A stretch of 64,000 nucleotides of DNA from an archaeon (GTDB lineage Archaea > B1Sed10-29 > WALL01): NCBI GenBank assembly GCA_042584585.1, contig JBHOSQ010000002.1, positions 12,806 through 76,805 of the forward strand, in the 5' to 3' direction. The position numbers and the translations under genes were made by a program. This document shows positions 18,356 to 63,755 of this stretch, in pieces; the first letter of the stretch is position 1, and every line of letters starts with the position of its first letter. The notes beneath the pieces are model-generated. The model saw only the letters and a list, made by a program, of their open reading frames with translations. It was not told where the DNA came from and did not search any database.

Positions 18356-18359
18356 TTCA

Positions 18360-20034: not shown

Positions 20035-20435
20035 AGAAAGGGTTCATGCGCATCCTCGAGGTCCTGATAGTGATAATGCTGCTGTTTACATTGATGACAG
20101 CGGTGGTGAAGCAAAACCCCCCCACGTCAATGGCGACGAACCTTCGGGTGCTGCAAAGGCACGCGACAGACTCGTCCAACATGATGTGCAACTGCGACAG
20201 GGCAGTAGCGATTTTCATGAGCGCGGCGTCCATGAACTGGGTTACCAGCACAATGACCTACGCCCTTCCCGAAGACATTCAATATAGCTTAATAGTAGTA
20301 AATATAACCTCCGGCGATATAATTAAGTCGTCCGGCGGAAACCTGCCTGAGACGGGCGATATCGCGACGGCAAGCTGCTCAGTCACGCGCTGGGGCCTGC
20401 CGCCAAGACAAGTAGTGGTGAGAACATGGAGATAG
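20031..20435 (+). CDS. Minor prepilin-like protein
   Basis: MKKG|FMRILEVLIVIMLLFTL; ATG 20031 overlaps the upstream stop (ATGA). The ORF-track start at 19896 is spurious. Confidence 0.75.
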   Translation: MKKGFMRILEVLIVIMLLFTLMTAVVKQNPPTSMATNLRVLQRHATDSSNMMCNCDRAVAIFMSAASMNWVTSTMTYALPEDIQYSLIVVNITSGDIIKSSGGNLPETGDIATASCSVTRWGLPPRQVVVRTWR

Positions 20436-21643: not shown

Positions 21644-22020
21644 AAGTAATTAGTGTATTGTTATTGGCAGCCCTTTTGGTTGGCTGTACAAACACGGAGG
21701 AAGCCCCGGAGCCGACGGCAACGCTGGAGCCATTCGTGTCCCCCACGCCAGGGACATCAACAGCCACGGCAACACCAACAGCCACACCCGAGCCAACGCC
21801 AATTCCCATTCCAACTAAAACATTCACCACGCAGTACGAAGTCTGTGAAGACCTTACTGAAACATGGTACTGCCTCACCGACAACGGCCTTGTGACGTGC
21901 ACGCTCACGGGCATCAACGCGCCGAGCTACACGCCCAGCGAAATCACAGTTACGTGCTTCAACTTCGACTCACTCGAAGAAACAGAAGAATTCGTTATAC
22001 GTGTAGGTGATTCCCAATGA
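21637..22020 (+). CDS. Small lipoprotein with a Pro/Thr-rich linker and Cys-containing C-terminal domain
   Basis: Signal MLKVISVLLLAALLVG|C (lipobox); TATATPTATPEPTP linker; GAGGTG SD before a TTG start. Confidence 0.7.
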   Translation: MLKVISVLLLAALLVGCTNTEEAPEPTATLEPFVSPTPGTSTATATPTATPEPTPIPIPTKTFTTQYEVCEDLTETWYCLTDNGLVTCTLTGINAPSYTPSEITVTCFNFDSLEETEEFVIRVGDSQ

Positions 22021-25000
22021 AATGGCTCTTTGTTTTTGTTATAGCACTGCTATTGGTGACTGTGACAGTCGAGGCACTGGGCACGGAAATAACGCTCAAA
22101 ACCAGCTACGCCAGCGCCGACTCGCCCGGGGGCGGCCCAGGCGCGAAAAACGTGTGGCGGGACCGCGATGGATTCTACCACATTATTTTCCATGATGGCA
22201 CGAACGACAAGCTCTACTATACTTACAGCACTTCAACCGAGCCGACGAGCGCGGCCCACTTCATTACGCCGGTAATCATCTTTAATAGCGCGGAGAGGGG
22301 CTCGATGTGGCTCGACGTCTCGAGTGGCATCATCCACCTCGCTTATGCCGAAGTAGACGCGAGCCCGAGGCTAGTCTACGCAAAATGCGACACTGACGTC
22401 GGGTGCACTAGTGGCTGGACCTCGGTCGGCACAATTTACAACGGCCAGACCTATGGCTTGGCGAGCATCGTGTACCAGCAGTACACCGACATGGTAACGC
22501 ACTACATAACGCACTTCGTCTACGTAAAAGACACACTGCGGTACCGGGTTTACTACCGGGATTACGACACCGCTAGAATCTCGCCGTACTGGGGCACCGA
22601 GCAGATAGTCGACAACCTCCCGAGCGGCACCACGCAGCGCTACGTCCACCCCAGCATCGACAGGGACACCAGCGGAAGGATACACTTAGTCACCCGGACG
22701 TGGGTTGACGGCGGTGCACTCAGCACCAGAAAATGCTTGTACACCGCATCGACGGACGCCGGCCAGACCTGGAAAAACCTTGCCGGGTCAGTCGGGTACA
22801 ACGACCTGCTCAGCAGCAACTACGTAGAAGCCTGCTCCATAAATGTCCCATCCCCCGCCAAAAGCTCGAGCTACCAAGTGCCACACGTCGCGATTGAAGG
22901 GGCCAGCAGCCACACCCAGTGGCACACGAAAGGAAGCGCGCTGACCGGAGGCACGTGGAGCACCCCATGGAGCTACTACACCAGCTATGCGAACTGGGGG
23001 AACCTAGGGAGCGACATCAACGGCAACACGTTTTATAGTTATTCTAGACGGAACGGCGTCGTCGGCTATGTCTACGCCAGGCAGCGAAACAACGCGGGGG
23101 CCTGGCAGACCCAAGACACACTACACGCCAGCGGCAACAGCGCGCACCAAGTGATGGAGGCGCACGCGCCGCTCTGCAGCCGGGGCGACATCGGCGTGCT
23201 CTACGGAGCCACGGGAACCAGCACCCTTTACTTCCGCACGATAGACGGCGCGTACAGCGAATGCAACACCCCGCCCACGCTCAGCAGTGTCACGGTCTCA
23301 ACAGACCCAATCCAGGGTGGGGGCGAACAAACAGTGACTCCAAGCGGCCAAGGCGACGCGGACTCTGACCCGCTGAAGTTTGTATGCTGCATCGGAGAAG
23401 GAGCGTCATGCACGCCCACGACCGGGAACACCGTCTGTAATGAAGGGCAGACCACGTACTCATCCCCGTACTCGTCCATGACGTGCACGTACGACGCTAC
23501 TGCCGGGGCAACCCAAAGTGAAGCCGCGTACTGCCGCACGTACGACGGCACTGAATACCACATGGAAGTTGGTGGCGCAAACGACGCTTATGACGTTGAC
23601 TCAGACGCGCCAGTGACGACTGACAACGGGGTCGCCGACAACTGTTACGGTGGGGACTGGAGCTTAACTCTCTCACCGACCGACGCTGGTGCCGCAAGCG
23701 TTGACTGGACCAAGTACTGCGTCGACGATGTGTCCAACGACTGCACGCCAAGCACGACTGGGACTTCGGTGCCAACTGACTGTGGCGCCGGCAACGCGTG
23801 TGACGTCTACGTGCGCTACCAATCACAGGACACGGTCGGCAACCTTGAGAGCGTGAAGTCCAGTGGAAACATTAGCATCGACCGCGCGCCCCCGAACCCG
23901 TCAAGCATCACTGGCATAGTGCCAAGCGCGGGCCAGCTCGCCGTTACCGCGTCGCAGGTTACGGACGTTGGGTGCTGGGGCGACAACTGGTACTACTTTA
24001 CTTGTGCATCCGGCGCGTGCAACGACCGGACATGGACACTGAACGACTGGACCCACACCGACGTGGGGCTCGCCCCAGCAACGGAATTCTGTTACACCAT
24101 TACAGTGAGAGACGGCGCGACCAACACAGGCAGCGCGTCTTCACAAGTGTGTGGCATCACGCCCGGGAACCAGCCAACGAGCATGTCGGCGACTGCGTCC
24201 ATAGCCGCGCCGCTTAACTCGGAAAGAGGCAACGTTGACTTGTCGTGGAGCGCGAACAGCAACCCCGGCGGAACTATATACTCAATAGAGCGCGACCAGG
24301 CCTGGATTGCAAACACGACGAGCACGACGTATACTGACACGGCCGGCAGCGACAACACGGAGTACTGCTACCGCGTGCGCGCGGCGCACCCGAGTGGCTC
24401 ATACGGAAGCTACAGCACGGAAGAGTGCGCGATGACCGCTGACCGCACTTCCCCCGCGACGCCCAGTCTGACTGCGGCCGCGGACAACGTGCTGAACCAA
24501 GTAAACTTGAGTTGGGACCAGGGCGACGACAACTTGGTCGGCTACTGGCCGTTCGAGGAAGGCAGTGGCTCATCAACTGATGACTGGAGCCCGGCCGGCG
24601 GCGACGGCACGCTGCAGGGCCCGGACTGGATTAGTGGGCAATACGGGCGGGCGCTGGACTTCGTGCTCGCAAACACGGATTACGTTGACGTGCCTTCGGG
24701 GGCGTTGCTGGACCTAAGCGCCGGGACCAACAGCTTCACAATAGTCGGGTGGATAAATCCGGACCTGTCGCAAGACGTTGGGCCGATTATTTCCACGAGG
24801 GACGTGATAAACGGCGTGGTGACCAAGGGCTACGGATTCGAGACCAACATAAACACCGCGAACGGCATGAAGGTGAACAGCCTACGGCTGGTGCTCGGCA
24901 CTCCAGCGTGGAAGTGGAACGTGTGGGGCTCGGAAACAAACAGCCTCGTGCCGGGGTCGTGGCAGCACGTCGCGGTTGTGGTGACCGGCACTAATACGGC

Positions 25001-28000
25001 GTCGAAGACAGTGCAGTTCTACATCGACGGCGTCGAGTCCAATACATATTACTGGACAGCAAGCACAGAAACAGATGTATTGCTTTGGGGTGACAATCCG
25101 TTGTCGAACCGCATCGGCGGGTACTATCCCGCGACTTACCCACCGTATGGCGTCGGCTACTTCGACGGAAGCATTGACGAGTTAAGGGTTTATGCCGGCA
25201 AAGCGTTCACGCAAGAAGAAATATTCAACGACATGGAGTCAGGGCTAATCACGCACGGCGTGCACAGGGGCGCGACTTCCTGGGAGTACGGGCCGGCCGA
25301 CGGGCTAGCCGACAACTTCAGCGACGGAGACTACACAAATGACCCCACGTGGACCGTGCCCGTTGGCACCTGGGCCGTGAGCTCGGAAAAACTGACACAA
25401 TCATTCACGGGCGGCGGCTGGACAAAGATAACCGCCGGGAGCTCCAGTTGGGACGACTACGTGTTTTCTGTCAAAGTAAAGCCAACCACCATCACTGAGA
25501 CGTATCCAAACGTTGGTCTCATGTTGAGGGCGCAGAACTCTAACACGTACTACGGTATCTTCCACCACCAAGACGACAACACGTGGAGAGTTTATGACTA
25601 CCAAGATGCCGCGTACATATTCACGTCAAGCGCAATGAGCCTAGCCATGAACGAATGGCACGAGCTGAAGGCAAAAGTAGTGGGAGACAACCTCAAGTTC
25701 TATGTCGACGGAGTGCTGGTCGCGGACCTAACGGACAGCACAATGTCCACAGGGTACATCGGCCTGCTGACGCTGTACACCGCCGCAGAATTTGACGACA
25801 TCAAAGTAACACCGCTCATCGCTGACGACGAGTACGGGGACAGCGGCGCGGCAGATACCACTGCACCGAACAACGGCGCGACGCCCACGATTGACCAAAT
25901 CGCGATTAACAGCATGCGCGTGAACTGGGGCACGTCCGCGGACAACGGCAACACCTGGTACCACTACATCACGGCCTTCGACGACGAAGGCAACGAAGAC
26001 AACATTTTCCACGACGGGGGATGCGAGAAGGGCACGAACCCATGCTACTTCAAGGCTGGGAGCCTCGTCAGCAGCGGGTACACAGTGGACAGCTCTGTCG
26101 CGTACACTGGTGGATACTCTGTCCGGCAGGACACCTCCTCAAGCACCAAGTACTTCGGCTCGGACTTCATCATAGGCACTGACATTGAGCCGAACACAGA
26201 CTACATCGCAGAGTGCATGGTGAAGACTGCTTTGTCCGCGGGATACGCGAGGATATACCCAGAGCACCAGTTTACGACCCTGCACTTCAACAGTGTGAGC
26301 GGCACAACAGACTGGACGAGGATACACACGTCATTCACCTCCGGTGCCTCGGGCGACGTGCGCCTCCTCCGGTACACAATGGGGACCGCCACCGGCCAAA
26401 CGTGGTGGGACGACTGCACGCTCCACAAGCTCACTGAGACCACAGTTACTACCGGCGTTGGCTCGGACGACTATTATGTCTACAACACAGTCGGCAGCGG
26501 CGATGGTGGGACGAACAGTAGTTGGCAGGCGACCCCCTACACCGACACCAGTCTGTCGGCTAACACTCAATACTGTTACAAGGTCCGCGCAAGAGACAAT
26601 GCGGGAACGCCGAATGTCGGCGACTTCGGCTCGCAGACGTGCAAATGGACCCTCCCGGAAGACCCTGACGCCATCTGCACGTCCGGCCACGTGGCTGGCA
26701 CATGGAGCAGCAACAACGACCCCTCCTTCACCATCGACGGCGATGCAAACGCGTACCACTACGATTGGAACGGCGCGTCAAGCGACACGATTACCACCGG
26801 TGACTCGACAATCACAAGCCCACACACGTTCACGGACACCGCGGACGGCACTTGGTACCTGCACCTCATAAGCGCGAACCCAGACGGCGCAGTCAACCCC
26901 GGGGGCACGCAAACATTCTCGGTCGGCGGGTGGAAGATAGACGCCACTGCGCCGACATCAGTCAGCACAAGCGGGGGCACGGCGGGCTGGCAGAACACCG
27001 CCGCAAGCGCGGGCGTCTCGTGCAGCGACGCGACCAGCGGGTGCGACACAAGCACTTATAGAGTATACAACCGCGGGAGCGCGGGGGCGTGTGACACCAA
27101 CTACGCAACTTACACGCAAACAGTGCCGTACTCCGTCACGAGCCAGCAGTGGATATGCGCCGCGGCAAAAGACAACGCGGGCAACGTAAAGTACCAAGGC
27201 ACCGCAACCGAGTTCCAGGTCGACATGCTTGACCCCACCACGAGCGACAACGCGGACACGGTGACGTGCCACAACATCGACCAAACAGTGACGCTGACTC
27301 CAGGAGACACCGGCGGGTCAGGGCTCGCGGACACTGATTACTGCGTTGACACCGGGAACTCTTGCACCCCGACCACAAGTGGCACAAGCGCGAGCGTCAC
27401 GTGCGCCGACGGCGGCTATTGCCAGCAGTACGTGAGGTACTTCTCTACTGACACAGCGGGCAACACCGAGACAGTGAACTCCGTGGGCACCATAAAAATC
27501 GACAAGGCTCCGCCGAGCACGCCGAGCATCACCGTGATAACGCCCGGCAGCCAGCAAATTGCGCTCACGTCAAGCGTTGTGAGTGACGTTGGCTGTGAAG
27601 GCGGAGTACAGTACTACTTTGACTGCGTGTCCGGTGCTTGTAACGACCGGACCTGGGCGTCCGGGAACACTTACACCGACACTGGCTTGGCCGATAATAC
27701 TTACTACTGCTACAAAGTCAAGGCAAAAGACGCGAACAACAAAGAGACTGTGCTGTCCGCCCAACAATGCGCGTGGACCACCACTCCCGCGCCGACGCTG
27801 GACTCCGTGACTGCGGAGGAGGACGGCCTGCTAGTCGCACAGAAGGACAGCCTTCTTATTGACTGGACAGGCAACGGCGCCACTTCGTACGACCTCGAGA
27901 GGACGACAGACACCACGACCGTTTACTCAGGCGGCAACACGGACTACACAGACCTAAACCTCGACGACAACAGCGAGTACTGCTACCACGTGCGGGGCGT

Positions 28001-31000
28001 TGACGGCGGAGGCACGCCAGGCAGCTGGTCAAGCACAGTGTGCGGGATTAATGCCGACCGCACCGGGCCCACGAGCCCGGTCTACAACGCGACCGGAACA
28101 CAGGGCAATCCGGCGACTGACTGCGTGCACATTCTTGAAGAAAGGGGAGCGGTGGCGAGCGGCGTGTACTGGATTGACCCACTGCAGGACGGCGGGGGAT
28201 TCGAAGTATACTGTGACATGCTTACTGACGGCGGCGGCTGGACGCTCGTGGACAACGACGCGGTCAACGCAGAAGTATTCCTTTCCCGTGAGCCAATAGC
28301 GAACACCGACCCCGGAATAACAGCTGGCAAGTATTTGCAGGAGTGGGCGTGGGGCCCACAGCCAAGGCTCATGGTCAAGAGCTCAGTGTACAATGGAGAC
28401 TTGAACTGGGTTACGTTGATTCCGTTGACTGCGTTTGCCAACGAGTACCCGACCGTGACCACTCAGCCGACCAGCGAGCCAGACGCGTGGGCGGCGGACA
28501 AGCTGAACGGCAACATGTGGAACGACGGCGGCTCCTGGATTTACTCCGGGTCAGGAAGGTTTGGCTCGGTGTGGATTGGGAACGGCGGCGCGCCCACCGC
28601 AGCGTGCAACTACGCAAGCACGAAAGTGAGTGGGCTCGGCACGTACGCCAACGGTGACGTCTCGACGTGCTCTACTTGGGTGCGGCCGCGTGACCCACCA
28701 GTGCCCGCGAACAGTGTTTCGTTCGAGTGGACCCAGGGCGACTCGAACCTAGTGCTTTACATGCCGTTCGAGGAAGGCACTGGAGCGGCGACGGACGACT
28801 GGAGTTCCAGCGAAAACGACGGCACGAAGATTGGGACCTGGACAACAGGGAATACAGACACATACACTGGAGGCGCACTGAACTTTGGCGGCAGTAGCGA
28901 GTATGTAAATATTCCGTACGACGCGAGCCTTGCACCCGACCAGCTGACGGTCATGGCGTGGTTCAACGCGGACGCCTTTGTCAACAACCAGAGAATAGTC
29001 TCGAAGACAGAGGGTGGCGGATACCAGTTAAGCATTAACGAAGCGGCCTGCCCCGGAGAAGTATGCATGCTCGTCCATACTGGGAGCTATCACGTTGTCA
29101 GCTACGCACATTCAAACTTGAACACTGGCCAATGGCATCACATGACAGGAACATACGACGGCAGTACCGCGAAGCTGTACATAGACGGCGTTGAAGTAGA
29201 CTCCAACTCAAACCCCAGCGGCAACATTGTGTACAACGCGAACAACCCCTTGTGCGTCGGGGCTGAAGCCACTTCAAACAGCTGCGGCGGCGGGTACCAA
29301 TTCCTTGGAGAAGTCGACGAAGTCCGCGTGTACGACACGGCACTCACGCAGCGCGAGATAATCGATGCGATGCAGTCGGGTGTAATAGGCCACGGAGTGC
29401 TGCGGGCCGACAACAATGCAGGAGGCGCCACGTACACGCCTGTCGGCGGGCTGATTAGCGCCACCAGCGGCACACTCGCGCCAGAAGACTATGTTCAAGA
29501 CTTCTGGCTGGAGTTCGACTCCATGGAAGACGTGAGCGGCGGCGAGGCGTGGGAAGTGCAGTTCAAGGACGGTGGCGCCTTTGAGTACATTGTCGACAGG
29601 ACATCGCTCACCAATGTGCGGCTGCAGAACACTGCTTGCGGCGGCACGCAGCAATCATTCACCGCGCCAATCGGCCAAGGAGTGTGGGAAAACATAGACA
29701 TAATCAAGCACGGCGCCGACATTATGATTTATCAGGACAACGTATTCGTCGGCGAGACGACCCTCCAGTCCTGCAACGACCCATTCGACACAATCACAAT
29801 CAGCGGCGAAGGAATGAAGAACATCAGGCTCGTGCCGTTCAACTACGACAACGAGATTACCGACACGGTTGCAAAGGACGAGACCGGGCCCAACACGCCA
29901 AGCGCGCCGACTGTCACGGCGGTGTCAACCAGCAGCCTGAGTGTTGATTGGACTGAGGTCACGGACAACGGCGACGACTGGTTCCACGTTGTTACTGCAT
30001 GGGACGACAACGGGAACGACGACAACATACTCAACAACTGGCCCAGCATCAAGGAGTACTACGGGCTTGCGGGATATCCCTTCTGGAGCGACGCCACGCT
30101 CCGCAGCAGCGGGCGCGTTGAGCCCGGTGAAAGGATAATGATACAGTTCTACGAAAAGCTCCACCCCCTCTCGGCCGCGGACAGTGACTGGGTGAGCTGC
30201 TACATATATGAAACCGGGCCATGGGCAAACTCGTGCAGCGACTCAAGCGCCGCCACAACATGGGACTGGGGACAGTGCAACCGCATCGTGGGCACTGGCG
30301 GCACGGACTACGTGGTCGGCTGCTACCACGGGCCCAACAACGAGCACACCGCAGACGGCGCATATGTGCGGGACCTACGGCTCCGCAAAGTCCACGAGGA
30401 AACCGTCATCACAAACACAAAAGACTACTACGTCGCCGGGACGAGCCTGAACGCGTGGTACACGAGCGGCGCGCAGGCCGCGGGCAGCCTCTCGAGCAAC
30501 ACGCAGTACTGTTACACTGTCAAGGCGCGGGACAACGGGCTCAACGAGGGAACGGCGAGCGGCTCCGGGTGCAAGTACACCTTGCCGGTCGACCCGACGT
30601 TCTCGGTGAGCCACACCGCGAGCCAATGGAGCGCGGACGACACCGTGGAATTCACGGTCAGCAACTCGGACGGCGCTACTTACTACTACGTTTGGGACCA
30701 GAACCCGGGGACAAACCCAACCGGTGGGACCACGTGGGACGGGACACTGCTCACCAAGACCGCGACTGCGGACGGCAACAACTGGTACCTCCACGTTGTG
30801 GCGGAAAACCCGGACAACGCCCAAAACCCGAATGGCGCAGAGCACCTCGGGCCGTACTTCATTGACACGACCGGGCCGTCGAGTGTTAGTACAACTGGCG
30901 CCCCGGCGGGATGGCAGAACACTGACGCCAGTGCGAGTGTTTCGTGCAGCGACGCGAGCAGCTTGTGCGACTCGGCGACTTACAGGGTTTACAACCGCGG

Positions 31001-31523: not shown

Positions 31524-31527
31524 TACA

Positions 31528-32088
31528 ATGGCTAAGAAGAAAAAGATCAAGGTCGACCCCAAAGTTTGGTGGGTGGTCGGAGGAATAATAGTGGTTGCAG
31601 TCATAGCAGCGGCATTCCTCATGGCCAGCGACCAGGGAATAATCAAGCCAATCACGATTCCGGGGCTGCCCGCGGGCCCGGAGCAGCCAATAAAGCTGTG
31701 CGACTACAACGGCGTCTGTGACGGCGTGGAGACGCGCGAGTCGTGCCCCGAGGACTGCATCGAGCCGCAAGCGCTTTCAGTGGAACGGGACGAAGAGTCC
31801 CCTGTGACTGACTCGACGCCAACAGTCGAGATACTCATGGAAAGCGGGACCGGCGTCGCGTCTTGTGGGACGGGCACAAACGACGCCACGCAGTGGGAAT
31901 GCGTTGTGGAGGAGCCGGGCGCAATCAGCACAATGGTGCGGTGCACGCTACTGAATTATCATTTTGACGGCAAGTACATGCTTGCCTTGCGGTGCAAGGA
32001 CAACAACGGCGCTGACTTGCCCATGCAGCTCATTGACGACACAACGGTTTGTGCGGACCCCGTAACCGGATGCGGGAGGTGGCTCTAA
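31528..32088 (+). CDS. Small N-terminally anchored Cys-rich membrane protein
   Basis: Basic N-terminus, one TM (VWWVVGGIIVVAVIAAAFLM), CDYNGVCDGVETRESCPEDC motif, Ig-like remainder. Confidence 0.75.
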   Translation: MAKKKKIKVDPKVWWVVGGIIVVAVIAAAFLMASDQGIIKPITIPGLPAGPEQPIKLCDYNGVCDGVETRESCPEDCIEPQALSVERDEESPVTDSTPTVEILMESGTGVASCGTGTNDATQWECVVEEPGAISTMVRCTLLNYHFDGKYMLALRCKDNNGADLPMQLIDDTTVCADPVTGCGRWL

Positions 32089-35000: not shown

Positions 35001-38000
35001 CTGGGTCAGGGACAAAAACGGCAACTCGGCGACCGCCACCTCAACCGTCGACATAAACGACGGCAAGTGGCACCACGTGGCAGGCGTGAGGACTTCTTCA
35101 ACAATATACATTTACGTTGATGGAGTTGAGACAGGCACTGCCTCCGCAAGCAGCATCGGGGAGATCTGCCCAACAAACCCGTTTGTAATCGGCAGGCACA
35201 GCAGCTCAGCCCAGCGCTTCAACGGAAAAATTGATGAGGCACGCGTGTGGCGCAGGGCGTTGACAGCGTCGGAGCTGCAGTCGCGCGCTTGGTACATGCC
35301 GTTCAGGTCTGCGATGCTTGAAGCGAACTATGATGCAATCAAGGGCGCGGCCGACGACTTCAGTGACGGGGATTACACGAGCAATCCTGTGTGGACGCCG
35401 GGCATCGGTGGGAGCACATGGGGCGTCGAGAATGGGCAAGTGTTTACACAAAGCACGACCGCCTCTGAAAGCTCGCTCACGCTCACAGAAAACATCGCGG
35501 CGGGCGAGCCGTTCGTGATGACCGTGGACAAGGTCACTGACTGGGCTGAAACCGGAATCCATGGCGGAGGACATTACATACGGCAATACACCGCAGGCAA
35601 TTACCAAGTCTCGGGAGTGACCATACCCCACGCCTATGCCCAGCACTGGCGGCTAGAGTTCGACGGCACGACGTACAGGTTCTACTTGAACGACGAATTA
35701 ATCCGCGAGTGGGCAGGCAGCAGTAACGGAATATTCGACCTTTATGACGACAGGAACGCTGCGAGTGGCAAAGTGTACTACGACAACGTCAAGGTTTATT
35801 CGCTGCAGGGCAACAGCTACGAGGACACTGACGCAAGCGACACCGAAGCGCCCGACACGCCAGGCGCGCCGACGCTCACCGCGTACAGCACTTCCATACT
35901 AGGAGTCGCGTGGACAGGTGTGAGTGACACCGGCAACGACTGGTTCCACTTTGTCAAGGCGTTTGACACAACTGGGAACGAAGACAATTACCACCCGAGC
36001 AACGGGCTGGTCAGCTACTGGCCGCTCGGCGACGGGAGCACGGGCAGCGCAGACGGCGCGGTGACGCTGAACCGCGAGAGCACGGACCACGGAACTGTGT
36101 ACGGCGCGACGTGGGTCGATGGCGAGTACGGTAGTGCATTGGACTTCGACGGCGCCGACGACTACGTCACCATCGCCAACACGCACGCATTCGCGAACGA
36201 CGACTTTAGTTATACCTTGTGGTTCAAGGCGGACACGCCGCAGGACAACTGGCAGGGCATTATGCTCCAGAACAACTACCACACCGGCGCGCCGAACACG
36301 TTCTTCGTAGCCGCAATCAGGGGCACGAACGACCCGCCGAACCAGGACAAGGTGCAGGTGTACGACAGGTACAACGGCATCAACGTCGCCGACTACTCGG
36401 ACGGGCTTTACACCGACGGCGAGTGGCACCACTTGGCGGTCACTTATGACCGTGACGGCATGAGGCGGTTCTACATAGACGGCGCGTTCCAAAAAGAGAC
36501 AGACATAAGCCCGCACATCGCCATCGCGTTCCAGACCGCGCCGCTGCAATTGGGGCGGGACCTCACTGGCGCACAAGGCGGAACCACCGGTGGAGTATAC
36601 GCGTACGATGGCTCGCTCGACGAGATATTGATGTACAGCCGCGTCTTAACACCTGAAGAAGTCGCGGGCATCTACCACCGCGGCTTGATACAGCAAAGCA
36701 CGGTCACGACCGGGATTAATGACTACTACGTGAACGGCACCTCACTGGACCAGTGGTACACCACATCACCGCAGAACGCGACCAGCCTCGGTACGAACAC
36801 GCGGCACTGCTACAACATAACGGCGAGGGACAACGCGCTTAACGTCGGCAACGTGGGCGGCACGCAGTGCAACTACACGCTCGCGGTCAAGCCAAGCATC
36901 CTGGCTGGGTCCATGGTCTGCGACGGCAACACCAGCAGCGGGTACAAGTGTGACGTTCCCTTCAGTATGGGCGACAACCCGCTTTATACAGAGTATTATA
37001 TAACCGCGACGAGCACCGACGGCGGAACAGGATTCACGGACTCTGGGTGGATTACGGTAAGGGAGACCTATGTTGATACGGGCCTCGACCCGCACAAGAC
37101 GTACTGCTACAAAATCAACGCGAGAAACGGCGACGGAACACTCACCGGCCAGTACACCCAGGTGTGCAAGACCGTAGCCAACAACGTGCCAACGCTGGGG
37201 AGCGCGACCGGCAACACGGATCCAATCAAGGGTACGGCCCAGCAGACGCTTACAATCGGCGGGGTTGACGACCTGGACCAGGAATTGCTATACATCCACT
37301 GCTGTACGGACGAGGCCAACACGTGCACGCCAACTAACATCAACGACGTGTGCAGCAGCAACGATGCCCATCCATACTCGTCGCTGTCTTGCTCGTATGC
37401 CACTGGTGGCGTGACGACTCGGACCGAATACGTGCGGTGCGTCACAAACGACACTCATGACGTTTCCACGCCGGTGACGAGCGACTCTTACCTCGTTGAC
37501 TCGGTTGCGCCGACGACGACGGACAACCACAGCGCTGGCAGCTGCAACGCCGTCGACCAAGTCGTGAGCCTTTCTGCTGGCGACGATGTTGGAGGAGTCG
37601 GCGTGGACTCGACGCTGTACTGCGTGGACACGGCAAACACTTGCAACCCTGTGACAAGCTATTCGGCTCCGGTGACAGTGACTTGCTCGGCAGGCACCGC
37701 GTGCACCAAGTACTTGAGGTACAACTCAAGTGACGTGGTGGACAACCAGGAAACGGTCAACAGCGCTGCCGTCCAAATCGACAAGTCCAATCCAGACGAC
37801 GGCGTGATAGCGAACATTGTGTCGCTCGGCACGGACAGCCTTAGGGTCACGGCCACCGCGGGCACAGACGACGGGTGCGGAAACTCGAGCCTGCAGTACT
37901 ACTTCACCTGCCAATCCGGCGCGTGCAACGATGGCACGTGGCAAAGCGGATTGGTTTATGACGACAGTGGGCTGTCGCCGGCGACTGAGTATTGTTACAG

Positions 38001-41000
38001 TGTCAAGGTCCGGGACGACGCCGGCAACGAAGGCGCGGACTCCGCGGACACGTGTGCGTACACCGACGCGAGCGTGCCGACGATGGACTCCATCACGGCA
38101 GAGGGCACGCCGCTTAACTCTGGAATCGGGCGAGTGGAAGTCAACTGGAGTGGCAACCCAGCCGGAACTGACTACGAAGTGCAGCGCGACAAGTTCTTGA
38201 CGAGGTACAGCGGAACAAACACGGCTTATACTGACACTGGACTGGACAACACATGGTACTGCTACCGCGTGCGGGCCCAGCCGTCGGGAGGCTCGTGGAG
38301 CGGCTGGAGCAACGAATTGTGCACGGTTACTTTGGACAGGACTGGGCCGTCGCCGCCGAACTTGACTGCGACGCCGGACAACGTGAACAACCGCGTTGAC
38401 TTGGACTGGACGTGGGCGAACGACGAAATCGCGCCGGACATTGACAGCGGAATGGTCGGGCACTGGAGGTTCGAGGAGGGCAGCGGCATAGCGACATATG
38501 ACTCATCAGGAAGCAACATCGATGGGACTATAGTCGGCACCCCACAATGGGTTACAGGCCTAGCAGGCAACGCAGTCCAGCTGGACAACAGCTACATCAA
38601 TCTCGGGGACGCTCCAACACTAGACATAGCTACTGAACTCACTTTATCCATGTGGGTGAAGCCAGATGCGTTTGTTGTGGACAAGTTCCTGTTCGGCGGC
38701 TCATGGAGTTACCACGGCTATTCCCTGCGCTTCGATGATGCCGATAACTCGCAGCTGGAATGGTATGTTGGTGACGGAAGCGCGTATCATTTCTTCACCT
38801 ACCCCCACGGCATGGTAACAGGAAAGTGGTACAATATCGTATGCACTTATGACGGAACCGAAGGCAAGGTGTTCGTGAACGGGAACCTGATTGGCTCAAG
38901 AATCGAGCCGTTCATACCGGACGGCGCGTACATACAGGACCACGTGATTGGCACGGACGGAAGCAAGGCAAAACACTTCACTGGAACCATGGACGACGTT
39001 CGCGTGTACAACCGCGCGCTCACCGACGAAGAGGTGAAGTGGCTGACTCTCGTCGGCCAATGGCACTTCGATGAAGGCACTGGCACGGACGCGTTCGACG
39101 CGACTGGGTTCGGAAACGACGGATCGTTTGTTGGTGACCCCGCGTGGACTGATGGCGTGCACAACACGGCGCTTGAGTTCGACGGAAGCAACTACGTCAG
39201 CGCTGGAAGCAGCGAAGCCTTGAACCCGAGACAGCAGGGGTGGACCGCAGAAATGATGGTCAAGTCAACCCAGAAGAGCGGGGGCAACGGCGGCTACATA
39301 CGTGTCATGGGAAGGTACGAAGCAGGAGACTACTGGCTGCTCAGGACCCACACGAGCAGTGGTGACTACCCTGTGTTCCAGATAACTGATGGGAGTAACT
39401 CTGCCGGTGTCGCGGGCACTACAACCGTCACCGACGGCGTGTGGCACCACCTAGCGTTTGTGTATGACTACGACGACTCAAGGACATACATCTACATAGA
39501 CGGAGTTGAAGACGCGGCCAACGATTGGACTGGAACCTCAATGGGGGACATCAACCCAAGCACTGCCCTCCAAATTGGTCAATCACAAGCAGCCAATGAA
39601 GGATACAGCGGCAAAATCGACGAAGTCCGCGTGTGGAGAAGGGCATTGACCGCGGCAGAGATACAGGCACGGGCGAAGTACGGGCTGTATCGGGCTGCGG
39701 CGCTTGACGGGGCATACGAGCCAGTTGACGGGCTGTGGGATGACTTCGATGGCGCGGCTGTGGACACGGCTACGTGGACCGAACTAACTACCAACGACGC
39801 ATCCATAACAGTGTCCAACAGCGAAGTAACACTCGACGACAATACGGGGATAGCCCACCTAACCACACAAGAAAACTTTGGGGTGTATGGAACACTTGAG
39901 TTCGACCTCAAGGCAAACACTCCCGAGCCGGGGTCCACTTGGTACAGAATAGCCAAAGTCCCAAACACGTTCTATGTCGACGCCGGCAACATTTTCTCTA
40001 TATGGATGACCGGTGGAGTTCAGCTTGGCATAGTAAACGACTACGAATTCCATAACTGGAAGTTCACTTTGGACGGGACGCACATACGGGTTGTCTACGA
40101 CGGCAACGTGATATACACGGCGGACCAGGCCAGCAGCCTGGGGACCATCCGCTTGGGCAACGACTTCAGTACCGAACACGGGAACATGGTGTTCAAAAAC
40201 GTTAAGTTCACGCCGCTGATTAGCACGAACACATACCAAGACACTGGCGCGAGCGACACGGCAGGGCCGAACACTCCTGCAGCGCCGACTGTATTGCCCA
40301 TCAACAGCACCGCAATGCAGGCCTCGTGGAGTGGAGTGGGAGACGTCGGCACCGGGTGGTGGCACTACGTCAAGGCGTTTGACTCGGAAGGCAACGAAGA
40401 CAATTATCACGACAGCAGCGAGCTCATTGGCTACTGGCCGTTCAGTGAAGGCAGCACGGGAAGCGCGGACGGAGTGACGACGTATGACTCCGTTGGCACC
40501 AACGAGGGCACGGTAAGCGGTGCGGCGTGGGCAACAGGCGCTTACGGCACAGCACTTGATTTCACTGGCGGAAACACAGACAAAGTAGCACTGGCCACTC
40601 CCCTCACCCAAACAGTGTGGAGCACGACCTTCTGGGCGCGGCAAGACGCCGGGGCAGACATCAAGGGAATGATAATGGGCGACACCAGCAACACAATCAG
40701 CTTCATATGGTTCTGGGAAGGCAGCTACTTCAGGTTCAGGTCCAACAGTGGCACTCTCGACTGGCCAGAGCTGACCGACTTCACGACGATGGCCCATTAT
40801 GCACTCGTGAGCGACGGCGTTAGTGTAACGCTGTACAAGAACGGCGTGCAAGTCGGCAGCCCCCAGACGCCGGCATCAACAGAATTCACGGTAAATGCGA
40901 TTGGACAGGGGTACAACAACATTGACTATTCGTTTGACGGCGTGATTGACGAAGTGATGGTATACGACCGCGTGCTCACCGACGATGAAGTGGTAAGCAA

Positions 41001-44000
41001 CTACAAGCGTGGCGCGGCCAAGTTCTCGACAGTTGTTACTGGCCTGCAGGACTATTACGTCAACGAGACCACTGGCAACGGCACCGGCGGGGCGGCGGCA
41101 GTGGCGGCGTACAACGACACCAGCCTGACGCCGAACGGATACGCGTGCTACGAAGTGCGGGCAAGGGACAACGCCAACAACTGGGGATTGTTCTCGAGCC
41201 CGACGTGCAACTACACGCTCGCGGTGACACCCGGGGCAAGCGTCACGTGCAGCCGAAACCCAGACCACTGCAACGTCACGATTTCACCGAACGGCAACGC
41301 GGCGGGCACAGAATACAACGTCAACAACACCCAGGGCGGAACCGACAGCGGGTGGATAACCGCGTCGTACTACGACGACACCAGCGTAAGCGGCCAACAA
41401 ATGTGCTACAAGGTCAGGGCCCGCAACGCCAACGGAATCGAGACCAACGAGTCCACCGAAGTGTGCGACAACATGCCCAACACCGCGCCGACCACGCCAG
41501 TGCTTGTGTCACCGACCAACGGCGCGATTGTCTCGACGCTGACGCCGACGCTTGATTGGCAGGACAGCAGTGACAACGAAAACGACAGCATTAACTACGA
41601 AGTGTTGCTGTGGGGCGACACGCCACCAAGCTTCACGATAACCAACTTCAACAACGGCGCGAAGACCAACACCACGACCGACGCGGACAGGTACGGCCAG
41701 GGCAGTGGGCTGGAGCTGGACATGCCTTACGCGGCCAAGGACGCGAACCTCGTGTCGTACTGGAGGATGGAAGGCGACGCGGTGGACGAGGCCGGGCCAA
41801 ACCACGGCACAATCACTGAAGCCACGCCAGACGCCGGAAAGTTCGGCAGTGGCCTGCACTTCGACGGGTCAAACGACAAGGTGACCATACAGAATGACCC
41901 CTCGCTGAACCCGGCGCAGATAACAGTCGCGAGCTGGTTCAACCCGGACGTTGGAGGCATAGGAGAGCAAAAAACATTGCTGATGAAGGCCTTCACGTCA
42001 CACACCACGCCGCACTACCAGTACACGCTTACAATCATAGACAAGGTGGACTACGAAAAGAAGCTTGCGTTTTACGCGGCGGTTGGAGGGGTGCTTTACG
42101 ACACGGGAGCGGGGTCACTCAACTACGACTACGGCGAATGGCACCTCGCAACCGGCACGTACGACGGCGGAACCATGCGCCTGTACCTGGATGACCAAGA
42201 AGTGGCATTCAGCGATGCGCCCAGTGGACCACTGAACTCGTTCGACACAGAACTAGCGTTCGCAGACTACCCCAACCTCGGCGACACCTCGAGTTACCAA
42301 TACGGTGGGGTGCTTGACGAGATGAAGATTTACGACCGCCCGTTGACAGGGCCGGAAGTGACAGAGCTGTTCAACAACGGAAACCAGTACAAGGCATACG
42401 GCTACTGGGAAAGCGAGACCATTGTCCCGCAGGGCGTGCCCAACAAGCTGAGCATAACCCACTCCGGGTTGAGCACGAGCTCTTACATAGACAAGGTCGA
42501 GTGGCTGGTAAGCGGGCAGGTCAAGGCAACGTACGGCACCGACGTGACAAGTGGGTCGCTCACAGAGATAACCACGCCGACAAGCGGGAGCTTCGACGAC
42601 GTAGACAGCGACTACAAGATACGGATTTACCTTGCCGGCGACGGGACCGCCACGCCAACGCTCACGCAGCTAACCGGCGAATACACCAGCCTGCACAAGA
42701 CCGGGCTGGGAAGCAGCCAATACATAATCCAGGCAAGTGAACAGTTGGTGGGCGGGAACTACAGCTGGAAAGTCAAGGCACACGACAGCTGGGCGTCGTC
42801 TGGCTGGAGCAGCACGTGGACGTTCCAGGTCCAGACCAACGACCCCGTGCTCAGCAGCGTGCAAGTCACGCCGGCGCACCCAACAGTAGTGGACGGCCTC
42901 GGGTGCTCGTGGGTGATTACAGACGTTGACTTCAACGACACTTTGACCGCGGACGTCACCTGGAAAAAGAACGGCGCGCCAATCGCCACGTGGGACATCA
43001 CGGGCATGGCCTGCCAGAACGGGCAGGTGTGCACCGCCACCAGCGCACCCACGTCCAGCGACATCGCGGCAGGCGAAGTGTGGACGTGTGTGGTGACGGC
43101 AAAGGACGCGGCACAGCTCACAGACGAAAAGAACGACACGGCAACAATACTCAAGGCCCTTACGGTGTGGTACACGGACGGGACATACGACACGTTCGCG
43201 TACACCCCCGAGGCATGGGACGTGTTCAGCGCAAACATGGAGAGCACTTTCCAGGGCTCGTGCGGCGGGTTCGCGCCGAACTGGTGGAACACCAACTGGC
43301 CGCTCAGGATACCCGTGGACGTCACAGAAAACACTGATGGCATGAGCCAATACCAAGTCAAGGTCGAGCTGGACGCTGGGTTCAACTACGGCGCCACCGA
43401 GACAGGTGGGAGCGACATACGGTTCGCCGACGACGCCAAGGTGCCACTGCCGTACTGGATAGAGACGTGGAACCCGGGCGGGACGAGCGTGATTTGGGTC
43501 AAAGCCGACTTGGCTAGCGGGCCCAACCCATTGTGGATGTACTACGGCAACGCTGGAGAGCCGAGTGAGAGTGACGGGACCGCGGTGTTCATTTCGTTCG
43601 ACGACGGCGAGGCCGGAAACTTGGTGCTCAACCCCGCGGGAGCGGGAAGCATCGAGCGCGTTGGCGGAAGGATCTACGGGGAATCAGTGGCGGCCGCGGA
43701 CGGCTGGCTAATCGGGACAATCCTGTCCGGCGAGCCGTTCATCGCCAAGGCGAAGCTTGAGAGCGGCGCGACTGGCAACGGCGGCATCGAGGCACTGGCC
43801 TTAAGCAACTGGGCGGCAGTGCCTGTTCCGATGATTAACACTGCGTTCAACCCCAACGCACGGTTCGGCATCAAGCGCTACCTGGACGACCACACCTTGT
43901 ACGTGCACTACATGGACAACGCGGGCAGCGGGTGGTACTACGACGCGGTGAACAACGTGTGGGCCGACAGCCCGACTAACTGGAAGGTTGCTGGGCCGGG

Positions 44001-63720: not shown

Positions 63721-63755
63721 CCTGCTTAAAAACGTGGGGGGAGTATATAAGAGTA

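What the first reader, a model, noticed from the sequence alone, without database searches (positions are those of the whole stretch)
24441..41061. Four copies of a three-slot FN3 scaffold loaded with interchangeable lectin-like domains
Seen: both giants contain two copies of the same super-module (about 24441-26480, 28056-30434, 33925-36732, 38335-41061). Conserved linkers are DRT.P....A......V...W [slot 1] R.....Y....G [slot 2] D..A.D...P....PT......W....D.G..W.H...A(F/W)D..GN(E/D)DN [slot 3] TV.T...DYYV. Cargo differs between copies: slot 1 holds one LamG in the first giant and two tandem LamG in the second; slot 2 holds unrelated-looking ConA-like domains; slot 3 holds CBM-like domains in the first giant and LamG in the second. 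The cargo interrupts FN3 strands (nested insertion) instead of being strung end to end, and several inserts look more AT-rich than the linkers. Inference: a recombination-driven cassette system that diversifies glycan or host recognition.
Basis: partly seen in the sequence, partly recalled or inferred. Interest (0 to 1): 0.8.

Follow-up and report, generated by a model that had tools for sequence, protein, structure and literature searches.

The report
Lectin domains nested in FN3 scaffold
Two giant secreted proteins of a tiny DPANN archaeon each carry two copies of a conserved stalk unit whose loops hold sugar-binding-type domains, and relatives show that these domains were exchanged slot by slot, a likely way of changing what the cell sticks to.

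Summary
Both giants (22017-31523 and 32089-44394) contain two copies each of one super-module, with the stated linkers at the stated coordinates.

The linkers add up to about two FN3 domains. Complete lectin-like domains sit between them:
- LamG, once or twice.
- A DUF1080/CBM66-like domain.
- A CBM4_9-like domain or another LamG.

Nesting is supported by sequence only. Relatives have empty slots that restore contiguous FN3-like sequence. Both AlphaFold runs were of low confidence.

Cargo exchange is real on an evolutionary scale. Same-genus orthologues differ in slot 1 only. One slot-3 domain is 77% identical inside linkers that are 31-47% identical. One relative's LamG is a clear chimera.

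There is no sign of an active or dedicated cassette system. Module repeats are at most 81% identical in DNA, and cargo composition matches the genome. Slot 2 mostly reflects divergence of one family.

The closest known design is the split domain of bacterial RTX adhesins. LamG-rich DPANN surface proteins are also known. An earlier scan note on another genome described a LamG nested in an Ig-like module. Verdict: a new variant of a known kind, of moderate interest.

The parts
22017..31523 (+). Giant 1 (P0001, 3168 aa), Sec-type signal peptide by eye, modules M1 and M2
   Evidence: orthologue in G002 over the N-terminal ~1600 aa (45%) and C-terminal 220 aa (61%)
32089..44394 (+). Giant 2 (P0002, 4101 aa), signal peptide by eye, modules M3 and M4, one more LamG and a DUF2341 domain near the C-terminus
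   Evidence: the G002 counterpart lacks M3 and M4
24441..24515 (+). M1 linker A (DRTSP...VNLSW; FN3-like strands A and B)
   Evidence: the equivalent G3b piece aligns to canonical FN3 positions 10-25, weakly
24516..25253 (+). M1 slot 1: LamG
   Evidence: PF13385 63.7 bits, profile 3-150 of 151
25254..25304 (+). M1 linker B (HGVHRG...WEYGPADG; FN3-like strands C and C')
   Evidence: contiguous with linker A in relatives that have an empty slot 1
25305..25820 (+). M1 slot 2: DUF1080 / 3-keto-disaccharide-hydrolase-like (CBM66-like) ConA-fold domain
   Evidence: PF06439 51.3 bits, profile 14-186 of 187; levanase CBM chain 4azz_A E 9e-6
25821..26003 (+). M1 linker C (E-like strand, an A'B'-like hairpin with Trp, then the F-like WYHYITAFDDEGNEDN)
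26004..26438 (+). M1 slot 3: CBM4_9-like domain
   Evidence: PF22637 27.0 bits against cut-off 27; 79% identical to G002 and 77-78% to G003 module b
26439..26654 (+). M1 linker D (TTVTTG, then FN3 strands C to G)
   Evidence: hhalign to canonical FN3 positions 31-88, 97.8%; HMM hit 1499-1545
28056..28103 (+). M2 linker A, first part (strand A)
28104..28703 (+). M2 extra slot (A-B loop): fibrinogen-related lectin-like domain
   Evidence: PF00147 34.2 bits, profile 4-48 of 221 only; FIBCD1, FGL1, tachylectin-5A and intelectin chains E 7e-8 to 2e-3 over ~50 aa
28704..28730 (+). M2 linker A, second part (strand B, VSFEW)
28731..29390 (+). M2 slot 1: LamG
   Evidence: 62-67% identical to the slot-1b LamG of G003 module d
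29391..29450 (+). M2 linker B
29451..29840 (+). M2 slot 2: unassigned beta-rich domain
   Evidence: no Pfam hit; no hhalign link at 50% or more; language-model leads to ConA-like CBM clusters only
29841..30026 (+). M2 linker C
30027..30395 (+). M2 slot 3: unassigned domain
   Evidence: no Pfam hit; 40% identical to slot 3 of G003 module a; lead to CBM_4_9 only
30396..30584 (+). M2 linker D
33925..33999 (+). M3 linker A
34000..35313 (+). M3 slot 1: two tandem LamG domains (34000-34638 and 34639-35313)
35314..35370 (+). M3 linker B
35371..35802 (+). M3 slot 2: divergent DUF1080-like domain
   Evidence: no Pfam hit; hhalign 98.8% to the DUF1080-like slot-2 group
35803..35988 (+). M3 linker C
35989..36693 (+). 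M3 slot 3: LamG
   Evidence: PF13385 88.2 bits
36694..36882 (+). M3 linker D
38335..38409 (+). M4 linker A
38410..39699 (+). M4 slot 1: two tandem LamG domains (38410-39042 and 39043-39699)
39700..39756 (+). M4 linker B
39757..40218 (+). M4 slot 2: divergent DUF1080-like domain
   Evidence: no significant Pfam hit; hhalign 93.2% to the slot-2 group; this whole segment is absent from G003 module d
40219..40404 (+). M4 linker C
40405..41022 (+). M4 slot 3: LamG
   Evidence: PF13385 63.9 bits; 64-65% identical to slot 3 of G003 module d
41023..41220 (+). M4 linker D
   Evidence: HMM hit 2991-3043 to canonical FN3 positions 31-83
15513..19571 (+). Upstream type IV pilus-like genes: one T2SSE ATPase and two T2SSF platform proteins
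   Evidence: synteny kept in G002
19555..22020 (+). Small ORFs between the pilus genes and giant 1. Two have pilin-like N-termini (..KGS / ..KGQ followed by a hydrophobic stretch) and one is lipoprotein-like, all by eye
   Evidence: 42-66% identical counterparts in G002
31528..32088 (+). 186-aa membrane-anchored ORF between the giants
   Evidence: two homologues in the G002 locus
44758..47979 (+). Downstream second pilus-like set: a ferredoxin-domain/T2SSE fusion and two T2SSF proteins

Best explanation
These are two Sec-secreted, adhesin-type giant surface proteins of a small-genome DPANN archaeon (Iainarchaeum / Diapherotrites by the labels of its nearest relatives). They are encoded inside a type IV pilus-like locus.

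Each giant holds two copies of a conserved super-module. The module is a scaffold of about 170-180 residues, equal to two FN3 domains' worth of strands. It is interrupted at three or four loops by complete lectin-like beta-sandwich domains: LamG, a DUF1080/CBM66-like domain, a CBM4_9-like domain or a further LamG, and once a fibrinogen-related domain. The design is the 'split domain with a budding ligand-binding domain' known from bacterial RTX adhesins. Here it is multiplied, so that one scaffold presents three to five heads.

The likely role (inferred) is multivalent binding of glycans on a host cell envelope or on polysaccharide.

Diversity arose in four ways: by whole-module duplication and loss, by divergence of resident domains, by loss or gain of single cargo domains, and by homologous recombination between equivalent slots of paralogous modules. 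The conserved linkers and the conserved LamG ends served as homology arms for that recombination.

Shown here: the four copies, the domain content, the empty-slot variants, and the mosaic and chimeric patterns. Inferred: the nested 3D topology, glycan or host binding, and the recombination mechanism. It is not a programmed switching system.
For: Copies and linkers.

Cargo domains are complete within their slots. LamG covers profile positions 3-150 of 151 and PF06439 covers 14-186 of 187. Linkers A and B are only 25 and 17-20 aa, too short to be domains. A+B+C+D comes to 166-179 aa, against 85 positions for one canonical FN3 of the same proteins.

Natural empty slots. Slot 1 is empty in G003 module b and in a P0037 module, giving contiguous ...VDLDWTATGTNYNLWRVSG... 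Slot 2 is empty in G003 module d, by a clean 150-aa gap against M4.

Linker D aligns to canonical FN3 positions 31-88 with 97.8% probability.

Mosaicism:
- M1 against G002: slot 1 32%, slot 2 83%, slot 3 79%.
- M1 against G3b: slot 3 77%, linker C 31%, slot 2 24%.
- M2 against G3d: slot 1 62%, slot 3 13%.
- M4 against G3d: slot 3 64%.
- Chimeric LamG: M2-like to M4-like informative sites are 72:7 inside the tract and 2:35 outside, Fisher p 3e-20 (uncorrected for the choice of breakpoints).
- Tree: G2_S1 with 37b_S1 at 99/99, and M4_S3 with G3d_S3 at 100/99.

Module number varies between congeners. G002 has one module in giant 1 and none in giant 2.

The module also occurs in archaeal giants from other sources: P0037, P0045, P0137 and P0152.

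Context: pilus ATPase and platform genes and pilin-like ORFs lie on both sides. The organism is archaeal, with a 1.02 Mb genome.

Literature passages read: LamG / ConA-like surface proteins are proposed host-attachment factors in DPANN (PMC10266531, PMC7443923). Ligand-binding domains budding from Ig-like split domains are described in RTX adhesins (PMC12077191).
Against: No confident 3D model exists. AlphaFold2 on M1 gave mean pLDDT 53.3 and on G003 module b 46.2, each with an 8-row alignment, so nesting rests on sequence logic alone.

Pfam fn3-type models barely see the linkers. Of 10 linker segments scanned, 3 gave only weak hits at E 0.01-0.07.

The first FN3 of the scaffold is supported only by short, weak profile matches with E 0.002-0.04.

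No binding, localisation or expression data exist, and no sequencing run could be listed.

High conservation of the M1-type slot-3 domain could in part reflect stronger purifying selection rather than transfer.

The direction and timing of the exchanges are unknown. All comparisons are between genomes, none within a population.

Neither giant shows an obvious C-terminal anchor, so the attachment to the cell is unexplained (by eye).
Confidence: 0.6

Rival explanations
1. Beads on a string. The lectin-like domains and FN3-like pieces are simply arranged end to end. The conserved 'linkers' are short inter-domain connectors or degenerate half-domains, and nothing is nested.
For: Both AlphaFold2 models are of low confidence and do not show a folded first FN3. 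Pfam FN3-type models give no significant hit on linkers A, B or C.
Against: Linkers A (25 aa) and B (17-20 aa) are conserved, carry FN3 strand motifs and become contiguous in relatives that lack slot 1. Linkers B and C become contiguous where slot 2 is missing. The total scaffold length equals two FN3 domains. Linker D is only the C-to-G part of an FN3, so its A and B strands must come from upstream of slot 3.
Confidence: 0.15
2. An active, programmed cassette-switching system. Cargo would be exchanged at high frequency within a population by a dedicated recombination or mutagenesis mechanism, comparable to pilin gene conversion or to diversity-generating retroelements.
For: There is slot-wise mosaicism between genomes and a chimeric LamG. 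The module linkers are conserved in sequence and could serve as recombination sites.
Against: No near-identical DNA repeats link the modules. The best are 81% over 148 nt and 73% over 289 nt. No silent cassette copies were found elsewhere in the 1.02 Mb assembly: profile matches that include the linkers lie only in the two giants. No reverse transcriptase or recombinase turned up among the 20 neighbouring ORFs scanned. The exchanged segments are 62-79% identical, not near-identical, so the events are old. The assembly is 84% complete, so absence is not proven.
Confidence: 0.05
3. Divergence only. Every module descends vertically, and the low identity of some cargo domains is due to fast diversifying selection on binding surfaces, without recombination.
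For: Slot-2 domains of M1, M3, M4 and of relatives are very divergent members of one family (hhalign 93-99%). LamGs largely group by slot. M3 and M4 fit a plain duplication.
Against: The G003 LamG switches from M4-like to M2-like and back in three blocks. The G002 slot-1 LamG is closer to a distant protein's LamG (50%) than to its congener's (32%), while its slots 2 and 3 show the reverse pattern. The M1-type slot-3 domain sits in non-orthologous scaffolds.
Confidence: 0.05
4. The architecture is the same but the role differs. The heads would capture environmental polysaccharide, for feeding or biofilm anchoring, rather than recognise a host cell.
For: Cargo resembles carbohydrate-binding modules of glycoside hydrolases: a levanase CBM at E 9e-6 and a GH10-associated module at E 1e-3, plus PF06439 and CBM_4_9.
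Against: No catalytic glycoside hydrolase domain was found in either giant at E 0.01 or better. The literature on DPANN proposes host attachment for LamG-type surface proteins, but this is itself untested (passages read). The genes lie in a pilus locus. Nothing here decides between the two roles.
Confidence: 0.15

Closest known systems
Ig-like 'split domains' that project ligand-binding domains in bacterial RTX adhesins (AhLap, FrhA, MpIBP). I read passages of PMC12077191. Graham et al. 2024, Proteins 92:933, I saw only in that paper's reference list. PMC10865825 and PMC5550230 I saw only in the search listing.
   Same: A beta-sandwich stalk domain is interrupted by a complete ligand-binding domain whose two ends lie together. 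The cargo includes carbohydrate-binding modules, and the setting is a giant fibrillar adhesin.
   Different: There, each split domain buds one ligand-binding domain. Here one conserved scaffold unit carries three to five. There are no RTX repeats and no type I secretion signal (no such Pfam hit at E 0.01 or better). The host is an archaeon with Sec signal peptides. The scaffold is FN3-like with an unusual strand order. The 3D structure is not confirmed here.
LamG / ConA-like lectin surface proteins and giant surface proteins of DPANN archaea (passages of PMC10266531 and PMC7443923).
   Same: Small-genome archaeon, organism-specific secreted proteins with several LamG domains, and a proposed role in host attachment.
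   Different: Those papers describe domain counts, not a conserved multi-slot FN3 module or slot-wise exchange. The nanohaloarchaeal giants are said to carry a VirB4/TraG-like ATPase domain, and no such hit was found here.
FN3 binding loops BC, DE and FG, as exploited in engineered monobodies. This is from my own knowledge and comes from no call.
   Same: If the interleaved reading is right, the three slots are exactly the BC, C'E (DE) and FG loops at one pole of the first FN3.
   Different: In monobodies the loops are short peptides. Here each loop would carry a whole 120-240 aa domain. The loop assignment is inferred from weak profile matches.
[quoted passage not shown] This is general knowledge; one preprint on phage proteins was seen only in a search listing.
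   Same: Conserved flanks with variable binding heads, and chimeric junctions inside conserved sequence.
   Different: No donor cassettes, no near-identical repeats and no dedicated enzyme were seen. The events are old.

Membership tests
Laminin_G_3 (PF13385) | Profile match above the curated cut-off over nearly the whole model | tested here: met
   P0001 scores 151.9 bits over 3 stretches and P0002 492.8 bits over 7 stretches. Slot segments score 63.7, 88.2 and 63.9 bits against a cut-off of 27.6, covering profile positions 1-3 to 150-151 of 151. Of 14 genome-wide matches, 10 lie in the two giants.
3keto-disac_hyd / DUF1080 (PF06439; CBM66-like) | Profile match above the cut-off | tested here: inconclusive
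   Met for M1 slot 2 (51.3 bits against 26.8; levanase CBM E 9e-6). M3 and M4 slot 2 have no Pfam hit and link only by hhalign (98.8% and 93.2%). M2 slot 2 is not linked.
CBM_4_9 (PF22637 / PF02018) | Profile match above the cut-off | tested here: inconclusive
   M1 slot 3 scores 27.0 bits against a cut-off of 27 on PF22637, and 16 bits against 25.9 on PF02018. M2 slot 3 has no hit, only a language-model lead.
Fibrinogen_C / fibrinogen-related domain (PF00147) | Match over the whole ~220-residue domain, including the ligand-binding P subdomain | tested here: inconclusive
   The score of 34.2 exceeds the cut-off of 22, but only profile positions 4-48 of 221 align. PDB chains align over ~50 residues only.
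Fibronectin type III fold (scaffold) | Seven-strand sandwich with a B-strand Trp and an F-strand Tyr-corner motif; sequence match to FN3 profiles | tested here: inconclusive
   Linker D matches canonical FN3 domains of the same proteins at positions 31-88 (97.8%). The other pieces match only weakly, though in consistent positions. Pfam FN3-type hits are sub-threshold. The 3D models are of low confidence.
Split-domain design of adhesins | Strands on both sides of a complete inserted domain belong to one beta-sandwich | tested here: inconclusive
   The sequence evidence is in favour: empty-slot variants and whole cargo domains with very short flanks. Strand pairing could not be seen.
RTX adhesins | [quoted passage not shown] | tested here: not met
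   Neither giant has an RTX-type Pfam family at E 0.01 or better. Both have N-terminal signal peptides by eye. They are therefore analogues, not members.
Diversity-generating retroelement or programmed cassette variation | Reverse transcriptase with near-identical template/variable repeats, or silent donor cassettes | tested here: not met
   The best direct repeats are 81% over 148 nt and 73% over 289 nt. No such enzyme was found in the 20 neighbouring ORFs scanned. Linker-bearing matches in the assembly lie only in the giants. The rest of the window's ORFs were not scanned.
Nanohaloarchaeal SPEARE-type giant proteins | A VirB4/TraG-like ATPase domain in the giant protein (as stated in PMC10266531, passages read) | tested here: not met
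   No such family appears in the Pfam scan of either giant.

The most novel reading that the evidence does not exclude
The scaffold is an interleaved double FN3. The strand order along the chain is A B [slot 1] C C' [slot 2] E, then the A'B' hairpin of the second FN3, then F [slot 3] G of the first FN3, then C-G of the second.

This has two consequences. First, the three slots are the BC, C'E(DE) and FG loops of one FN3. These are the three loops that form its natural binding pole, and each has been replaced by a whole lectin domain. Second, the chain crosses the FN3-FN3 junction three times, which would make a rigid hub.

This hub is a conserved host-recognition unit of DPANN archaea whose heads are exchanged slot by slot.
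Probability: 0.35. Interest if true: 0.7.

Novelty: new variant of a known kind. Interest (0 to 1): 0.5.

Why it matters
DPANN archaea are thought to live attached to other cells, and what decides their partner is largely unknown. This finding offers a conserved, recognisable module that concentrates three to five lectin-type heads on one small scaffold, with documented head-swapping between lineages. That gives a concrete handle: express the heads, find their ligands, and compare them with host range.

Structurally, a single FN3-type unit carrying whole domains in several loops would extend the split-domain principle from bacterial RTX adhesins to archaea, and from one head to several heads per scaffold. 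If the interleaved strand order holds, it would be an unusual natural topology of possible use to protein engineers.

The practical value for annotation is that the linker motifs (DRTxP, W.H...AFD..GNEDN, TV.TG..DYYV) mark domain boundaries. Pfam alone does not reveal these.

Tried and rejected
1. AlphaFold2 of M1 (745 aa, 8-row alignment) gave mean pLDDT 53.3 and pTM 0.46. AlphaFold2 of G003 module b (510 aa, slot 1 empty) gave pLDDT 46.2. Both are too poor to read topology, and no coordinates are available. I ran no fold search on them, because low-confidence models give meaningless matches.

2. Complex prediction on three natural scaffold pieces of G003 module b (A-C', E-F, G-G2) gave no verdict, scoring 0.03 against a mark of 0.32. 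This is no evidence either way.

3. The search for related loci with the linker-C alignment returned an error, because no stretch was conserved enough. Single-protein scans of metagenome and genome contigs found only the G002 orthologue as a full match (1 of 4 genome loci). The 5 metagenome loci and the other 3 genome loci cover only the first 25-179 residues of slot 2.

4. The look-up of sequencing runs listed no run, so read mapping for population variants was not possible.

5. The whole-library profile search was swamped by LamG arrays. Of the 150 best hits, 4 besides the window's own protein had a best stretch spanning most of the module.

6. Pfam on 10 linker segments gave only 3 weak hits.

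7. Foreign origin of the cargo by composition was rejected, because cargo GC3 equals that of the flanking genes.

8. Rfam found nothing in the window.

9. Literature searches returned no description of this three-slot module. This covers only the held library, and I read passages of three papers only.

10. A 'sequential' strand reading, in which the A'B'-like hairpin is really F and G of the first FN3, was considered. It is less likely, because that hairpin carries the B-strand Trp motif and the following segment carries the F-strand motif. It is not excluded.

Full report
WHAT IS THERE

The window is G000:C2:12806-76805 of a 1,016,689-base, 32-contig assembly that is 84% complete. Deoxyhypusine synthase and a PAC2 proteasome-assembly protein in the window mark it as archaeal. 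The same-genus orthologue of giant 1 lies on a record titled Candidatus Iainarchaeum archaeon (L030). An identical-cluster protein is labelled Candidatus Diapherotrites archaeon. The organism is therefore a DPANN archaeon.

There are two + strand ORFs, 22017-31523 (3168 aa, P0001) and 32089-44394 (4101 aa, P0002). Both start with Sec-type signal peptides (by eye).

They lie between two sets of type IV pilus-like genes. Upstream are one T2SSE ATPase and two T2SSF platform proteins at 15513-19571. Downstream is a ferredoxin-T2SSE fusion with two T2SSF proteins at 44758-47979. Small ORFs in between have pilin-like ..KGS/..KGQ-hydrophobic N-termini, again by eye.

CHECK OF THE OBSERVATION

The modules align with 28-32% identity, and the invariant columns cluster in the linkers. 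A profile of the four scores 1015-1300 bits on each copy.

Pfam on the slot segments gave the following:
- LamG in slot 1 of M1 (63.7 bits) and in slot 3 of M3 and M4 (88.2 and 63.9 bits).
- PF06439 (DUF1080 / 3-keto-disaccharide hydrolase) in slot 2 of M1 (51.3 bits).
- A borderline CBM_4_9_1 in slot 3 of M1 (27.0 against a cut-off of 27).
- Nothing significant in slot 2 of M2, M3 or M4, or in slot 3 of M2.

M3 and M4 carry two LamGs in slot 1.

M2 has an extra insert of about 200 aa inside linker A. Its first ~50 residues match the fibrinogen-related domain: PF00147 at 34.2 bits, and FIBCD1, FGL1, tachylectin-5A and intelectin chains at E 7e-8 to 2e-3.

The module also extends about 55 aa beyond DYYV, to the end of an FN3.

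IS THE CARGO NESTED?

No tool here gave a usable 3D answer. AlphaFold2 on M1 gave mean pLDDT 53.3 and on a simpler relative module 46.2, each with an 8-row alignment. The argument is therefore from sequence.

(a) The cargo domains are complete inside their slots: LamG covers profile positions 3-150 of 151 and PF06439 covers 14-186 of 187. The flanking linkers A and B are only 25 and 17-20 aa.

(b) Linkers A+B+C+D total 166-179 aa. This equals two canonical FN3 domains; the HMM built from 12 upstream FN3s has 85 positions.

(c) Relatives supply natural 'cargo removed' versions. G003 module b and one P0037 module have no slot 1 and read ...VDLDWTATGTNYNLWRVSG..., a B strand running straight into a C strand. 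G003 module d has no slot 2, with a clean gap of about 150 aa against M4.

(d) Linker D aligns to positions 31-88 (strands C to G) of the canonical FN3 with 97.8% probability. Its A and B strands must therefore lie upstream of slot 3.

(e) Piecewise profile-profile alignments are each weak (E 0.002-0.02; 0.004 for linker A) but consistent. They place the start of linker C on positions 47-60 (E strand and EF loop), its middle on 16-30 (B strand with Trp, BC loop), and its end (WYHY..AFD..GNE) on 62-75 (F strand and FG loop). Linker A falls on positions 10-25.

Read together, the chain order is A B [S1] C C' [S2] E | A' B' | F [S3] G | C C' E F G. That is two FN3 domains with the F-G hairpin of the first and the A-B hairpin of the second exchanged in order.

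From textbook FN3 topology (my own knowledge), this arrangement is sterically natural. The EF loop and C-terminus of the first domain face the N-terminus and BC loop of the second. It also puts all three slots on the BC, C'E and FG loops at one pole of the first FN3.

There is a slight hint in the poor M1 model. The A'B' hairpin (pLDDT 85-88) is as confident as linker D (66-88). The F-like and G-like strands (51-62 and 53-55) are as poor as linkers A and B.

I rate the nested design at about 0.75 and the interleaved order at about 0.35-0.5.

IS THE CARGO INTERCHANGEABLE?

Within this genome, M3 and M4 look like a plain duplication. Each segment's best within-genome partner is the same segment of the other: slot 1a 33-36%, slot 1b 45-48%, slot 3 29-30%. 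DNA repeats between modules are old, at most 81% identical over 148 nt.

Between genomes the picture is mosaic. A search of 41 related genomes, the own genome included, found matches that reach linkers C and D only in G000, G002 (same genus) and G003 (same family). Another 16 genomes matched mainly in the LamG part.

Percent identity by segment ('abs.' = the slot is empty in one of the pair):

| Pair | A | S1a | S1(b) | S2 | C | S3 | D |
|---|---|---|---|---|---|---|---|
| M1 vs G002 module | 61 | - | 32 | 83 | 65 | 79 | 59 |
| M1 vs G003 module b | 46 | - | abs. | 24 | 31 | 77 | 47 |
| M4 vs G003 module d | 61 | 32 | 42 | abs. | 50 | 64 | 34 |
| M2 vs G003 module d | - | - | 62 | - | - | 13 | - |

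- M1 against the G002 module. The G002 slot-1 LamG is instead 48-50% identical to a LamG of P0037, and the two group with 99/99 support. Slots 2 and 3 of G002 are only 26-28% identical to those of that protein.
- M1 against G003 module b. The high identity starts at the first residue after GN.GN and ends at KLTET, so this exchange is bounded by the slot.
- The slot-1b LamG of module d is a three-block chimera. The first ~50 residues are M4/M3-like (21-22 of 28-29). The core, C7 residues 689-846, is M2-like: 72 of 79 informative sites. The last ~30 residues are M4-like again. Outside the tract, 35 of 37 informative sites are M4-like. Fisher p is 3e-20, not corrected for the choice of breakpoints.

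Breakpoints for LamG thus lie inside the conserved LamG ends, not in the FN3 linkers.

In the LamG tree the slot-1a, slot-1b and slot-3 LamGs mostly keep apart (weak to good support). Exchange is therefore between equivalent slots, as homologous recombination between paralogous modules would give.

Whole modules also come and go. The G002 orthologue of giant 1 has one module, with a different middle region in place of M2. The G002 counterpart of giant 2 goes from the N-terminal region straight to the post-M4 region.

Slot 2 is mostly a story of divergence. The slot-2 domains of M1, M3, M4 and of G003 modules b and c all link to one DUF1080-like group at 93-99% hhalign probability. M2 does not.

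COMPOSITION

| Segment class | GC | GC3 |
|---|---|---|
| Cargo | 0.572 | 0.725 (95% 0.709-0.741) |
| Linkers | 0.612 | 0.789 (95% 0.757-0.818) |
| Rest of the giants | 0.600 | 0.765 |
| Seven flanking genes | 0.554 | 0.740 |

However, cargo matches the local background, so this is no sign of import.

WIDER DISTRIBUTION

A profile search of 1.84 billion representatives was dominated by LamG arrays. Among the 150 best hits, four proteins besides the window's own had a best stretch spanning most of the module: P0045, P0070 (the G002 orthologue), P0137 and P0037. A word-based search added P0152 and P0153.

P0037, P0045, P0137 and P0152 all carry the linker C and D motifs, with LamG / DUF1080-like / CBM-like cargo in the same order. 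In P0153 only the DRTxP start was found. Where labelled, they come from archaeal metagenome bins. One is labelled Methanobacterium sp., on a 10 kb contig.

Every DRTxP start that could be checked is preceded by a canonical FN3.

WHAT IT MOST LIKELY DOES

The heads resemble carbohydrate-binding modules and lectins: a levanase CBM at E 9e-6 and a GH10-associated module at E 1e-3, the fibrinogen-related lectins, and LamG. No catalytic domain was found.

Passages of two papers on cultivated nanohaloarchaea state that organism-specific LamG / ConA-like surface proteins are thought to mediate attachment of DPANN cells to hosts (PMC10266531, PMC7443923).

Passages of PMC12077191 describe how ligand-binding domains of RTX adhesins bud from Ig-like split domains with their termini adjacent.

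My reading is that each super-module is a rigid hub presenting three to five glycan-binding heads, on giant adhesins that work with, or beside, the neighbouring pili. Its specificity is renewed over evolutionary time by module gain and loss, by divergence, and by recombination between equivalent slots.

Binding, localisation and the 3D topology are inferred, not shown.

NOVELTY

The ingredients are known: DPANN LamG adhesins, split-domain adhesins, and domain shuffling. What I did not find described is the following:
- A conserved archaeal unit with several cargo domains in the loops of one FN3-type scaffold.
- The likely interleaved strand order.
- The documented slot-wise mosaic, including a chimeric LamG.

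They cover the held library only, I read passages of three papers, and supplements were not consulted.

I class this as a new variant of a known kind, with interest 0.5.

Noticed in passing
window 28104-28703: A fibrinogen-related (ficolin / intelectin / tachylectin-type) lectin-like domain sits in an archaeal surface protein, inserted in the A-B loop of the first FN3-like piece of M2. Only the N-terminal ~50 residues match known members. No homologue was found in the other modules compared.
   Followed up: partly
window 44758-46407: The pilus-type T2SSE ATPase downstream of giant 2 has an N-terminal 4Fe-4S ferredoxin domain (Fer4 at residues 25-98, T2SSE at 191-465). This is an unusual fusion for a secretion ATPase.
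   Followed up: no
L024 (G003:C14), L022 (G003:C86), L023 (G003:C7): Three contigs of relative G003 overlap end to end at the protein level: the C14 end equals the C86 start, and the C86 end equals the C7 start. Together they encode one giant of more than 6000 aa with four modules. The assembly broke inside the repeats.
   Followed up: partly
L021 (G002:C3:80000-99999): The same-genus genome keeps the gene order (platform protein, pilin-like ORFs, giant 1, small ORF, giant 2). However, giant 1 has a VCBS/FG-GAP-type middle region instead of M2 (families PF01839 and PF13517 precomputed for P0070). Giant 2 lacks M3 and M4. An extra 527-aa ORF combines a giant-2-like N-terminus with a giant-1-like C-terminus.
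   Followed up: partly
window 50607-55265 (-) and 59280-61454 (-): Two further large ORFs (1552 aa and 724 aa) have no Pfam family at E 0.001 or better. They lie next to a third T2SSE-type ATPase at 61417-63924.
   Followed up: no
P0137 (protein): A module-bearing giant of low-GC-type composition is labelled Methanobacterium sp. on a 10 kb contig. The label may reflect binning rather than the true host lineage.
   Followed up: no
window 42000-44394 (P0002 C-terminal part): Giant 2 ends with a further LamG (about aa 3218-3431) and a DUF2341 domain (aa 3774-3843, 73.7 bits). No recognisable membrane anchor is present, so how the protein stays on the cell is open.
   Followed up: no
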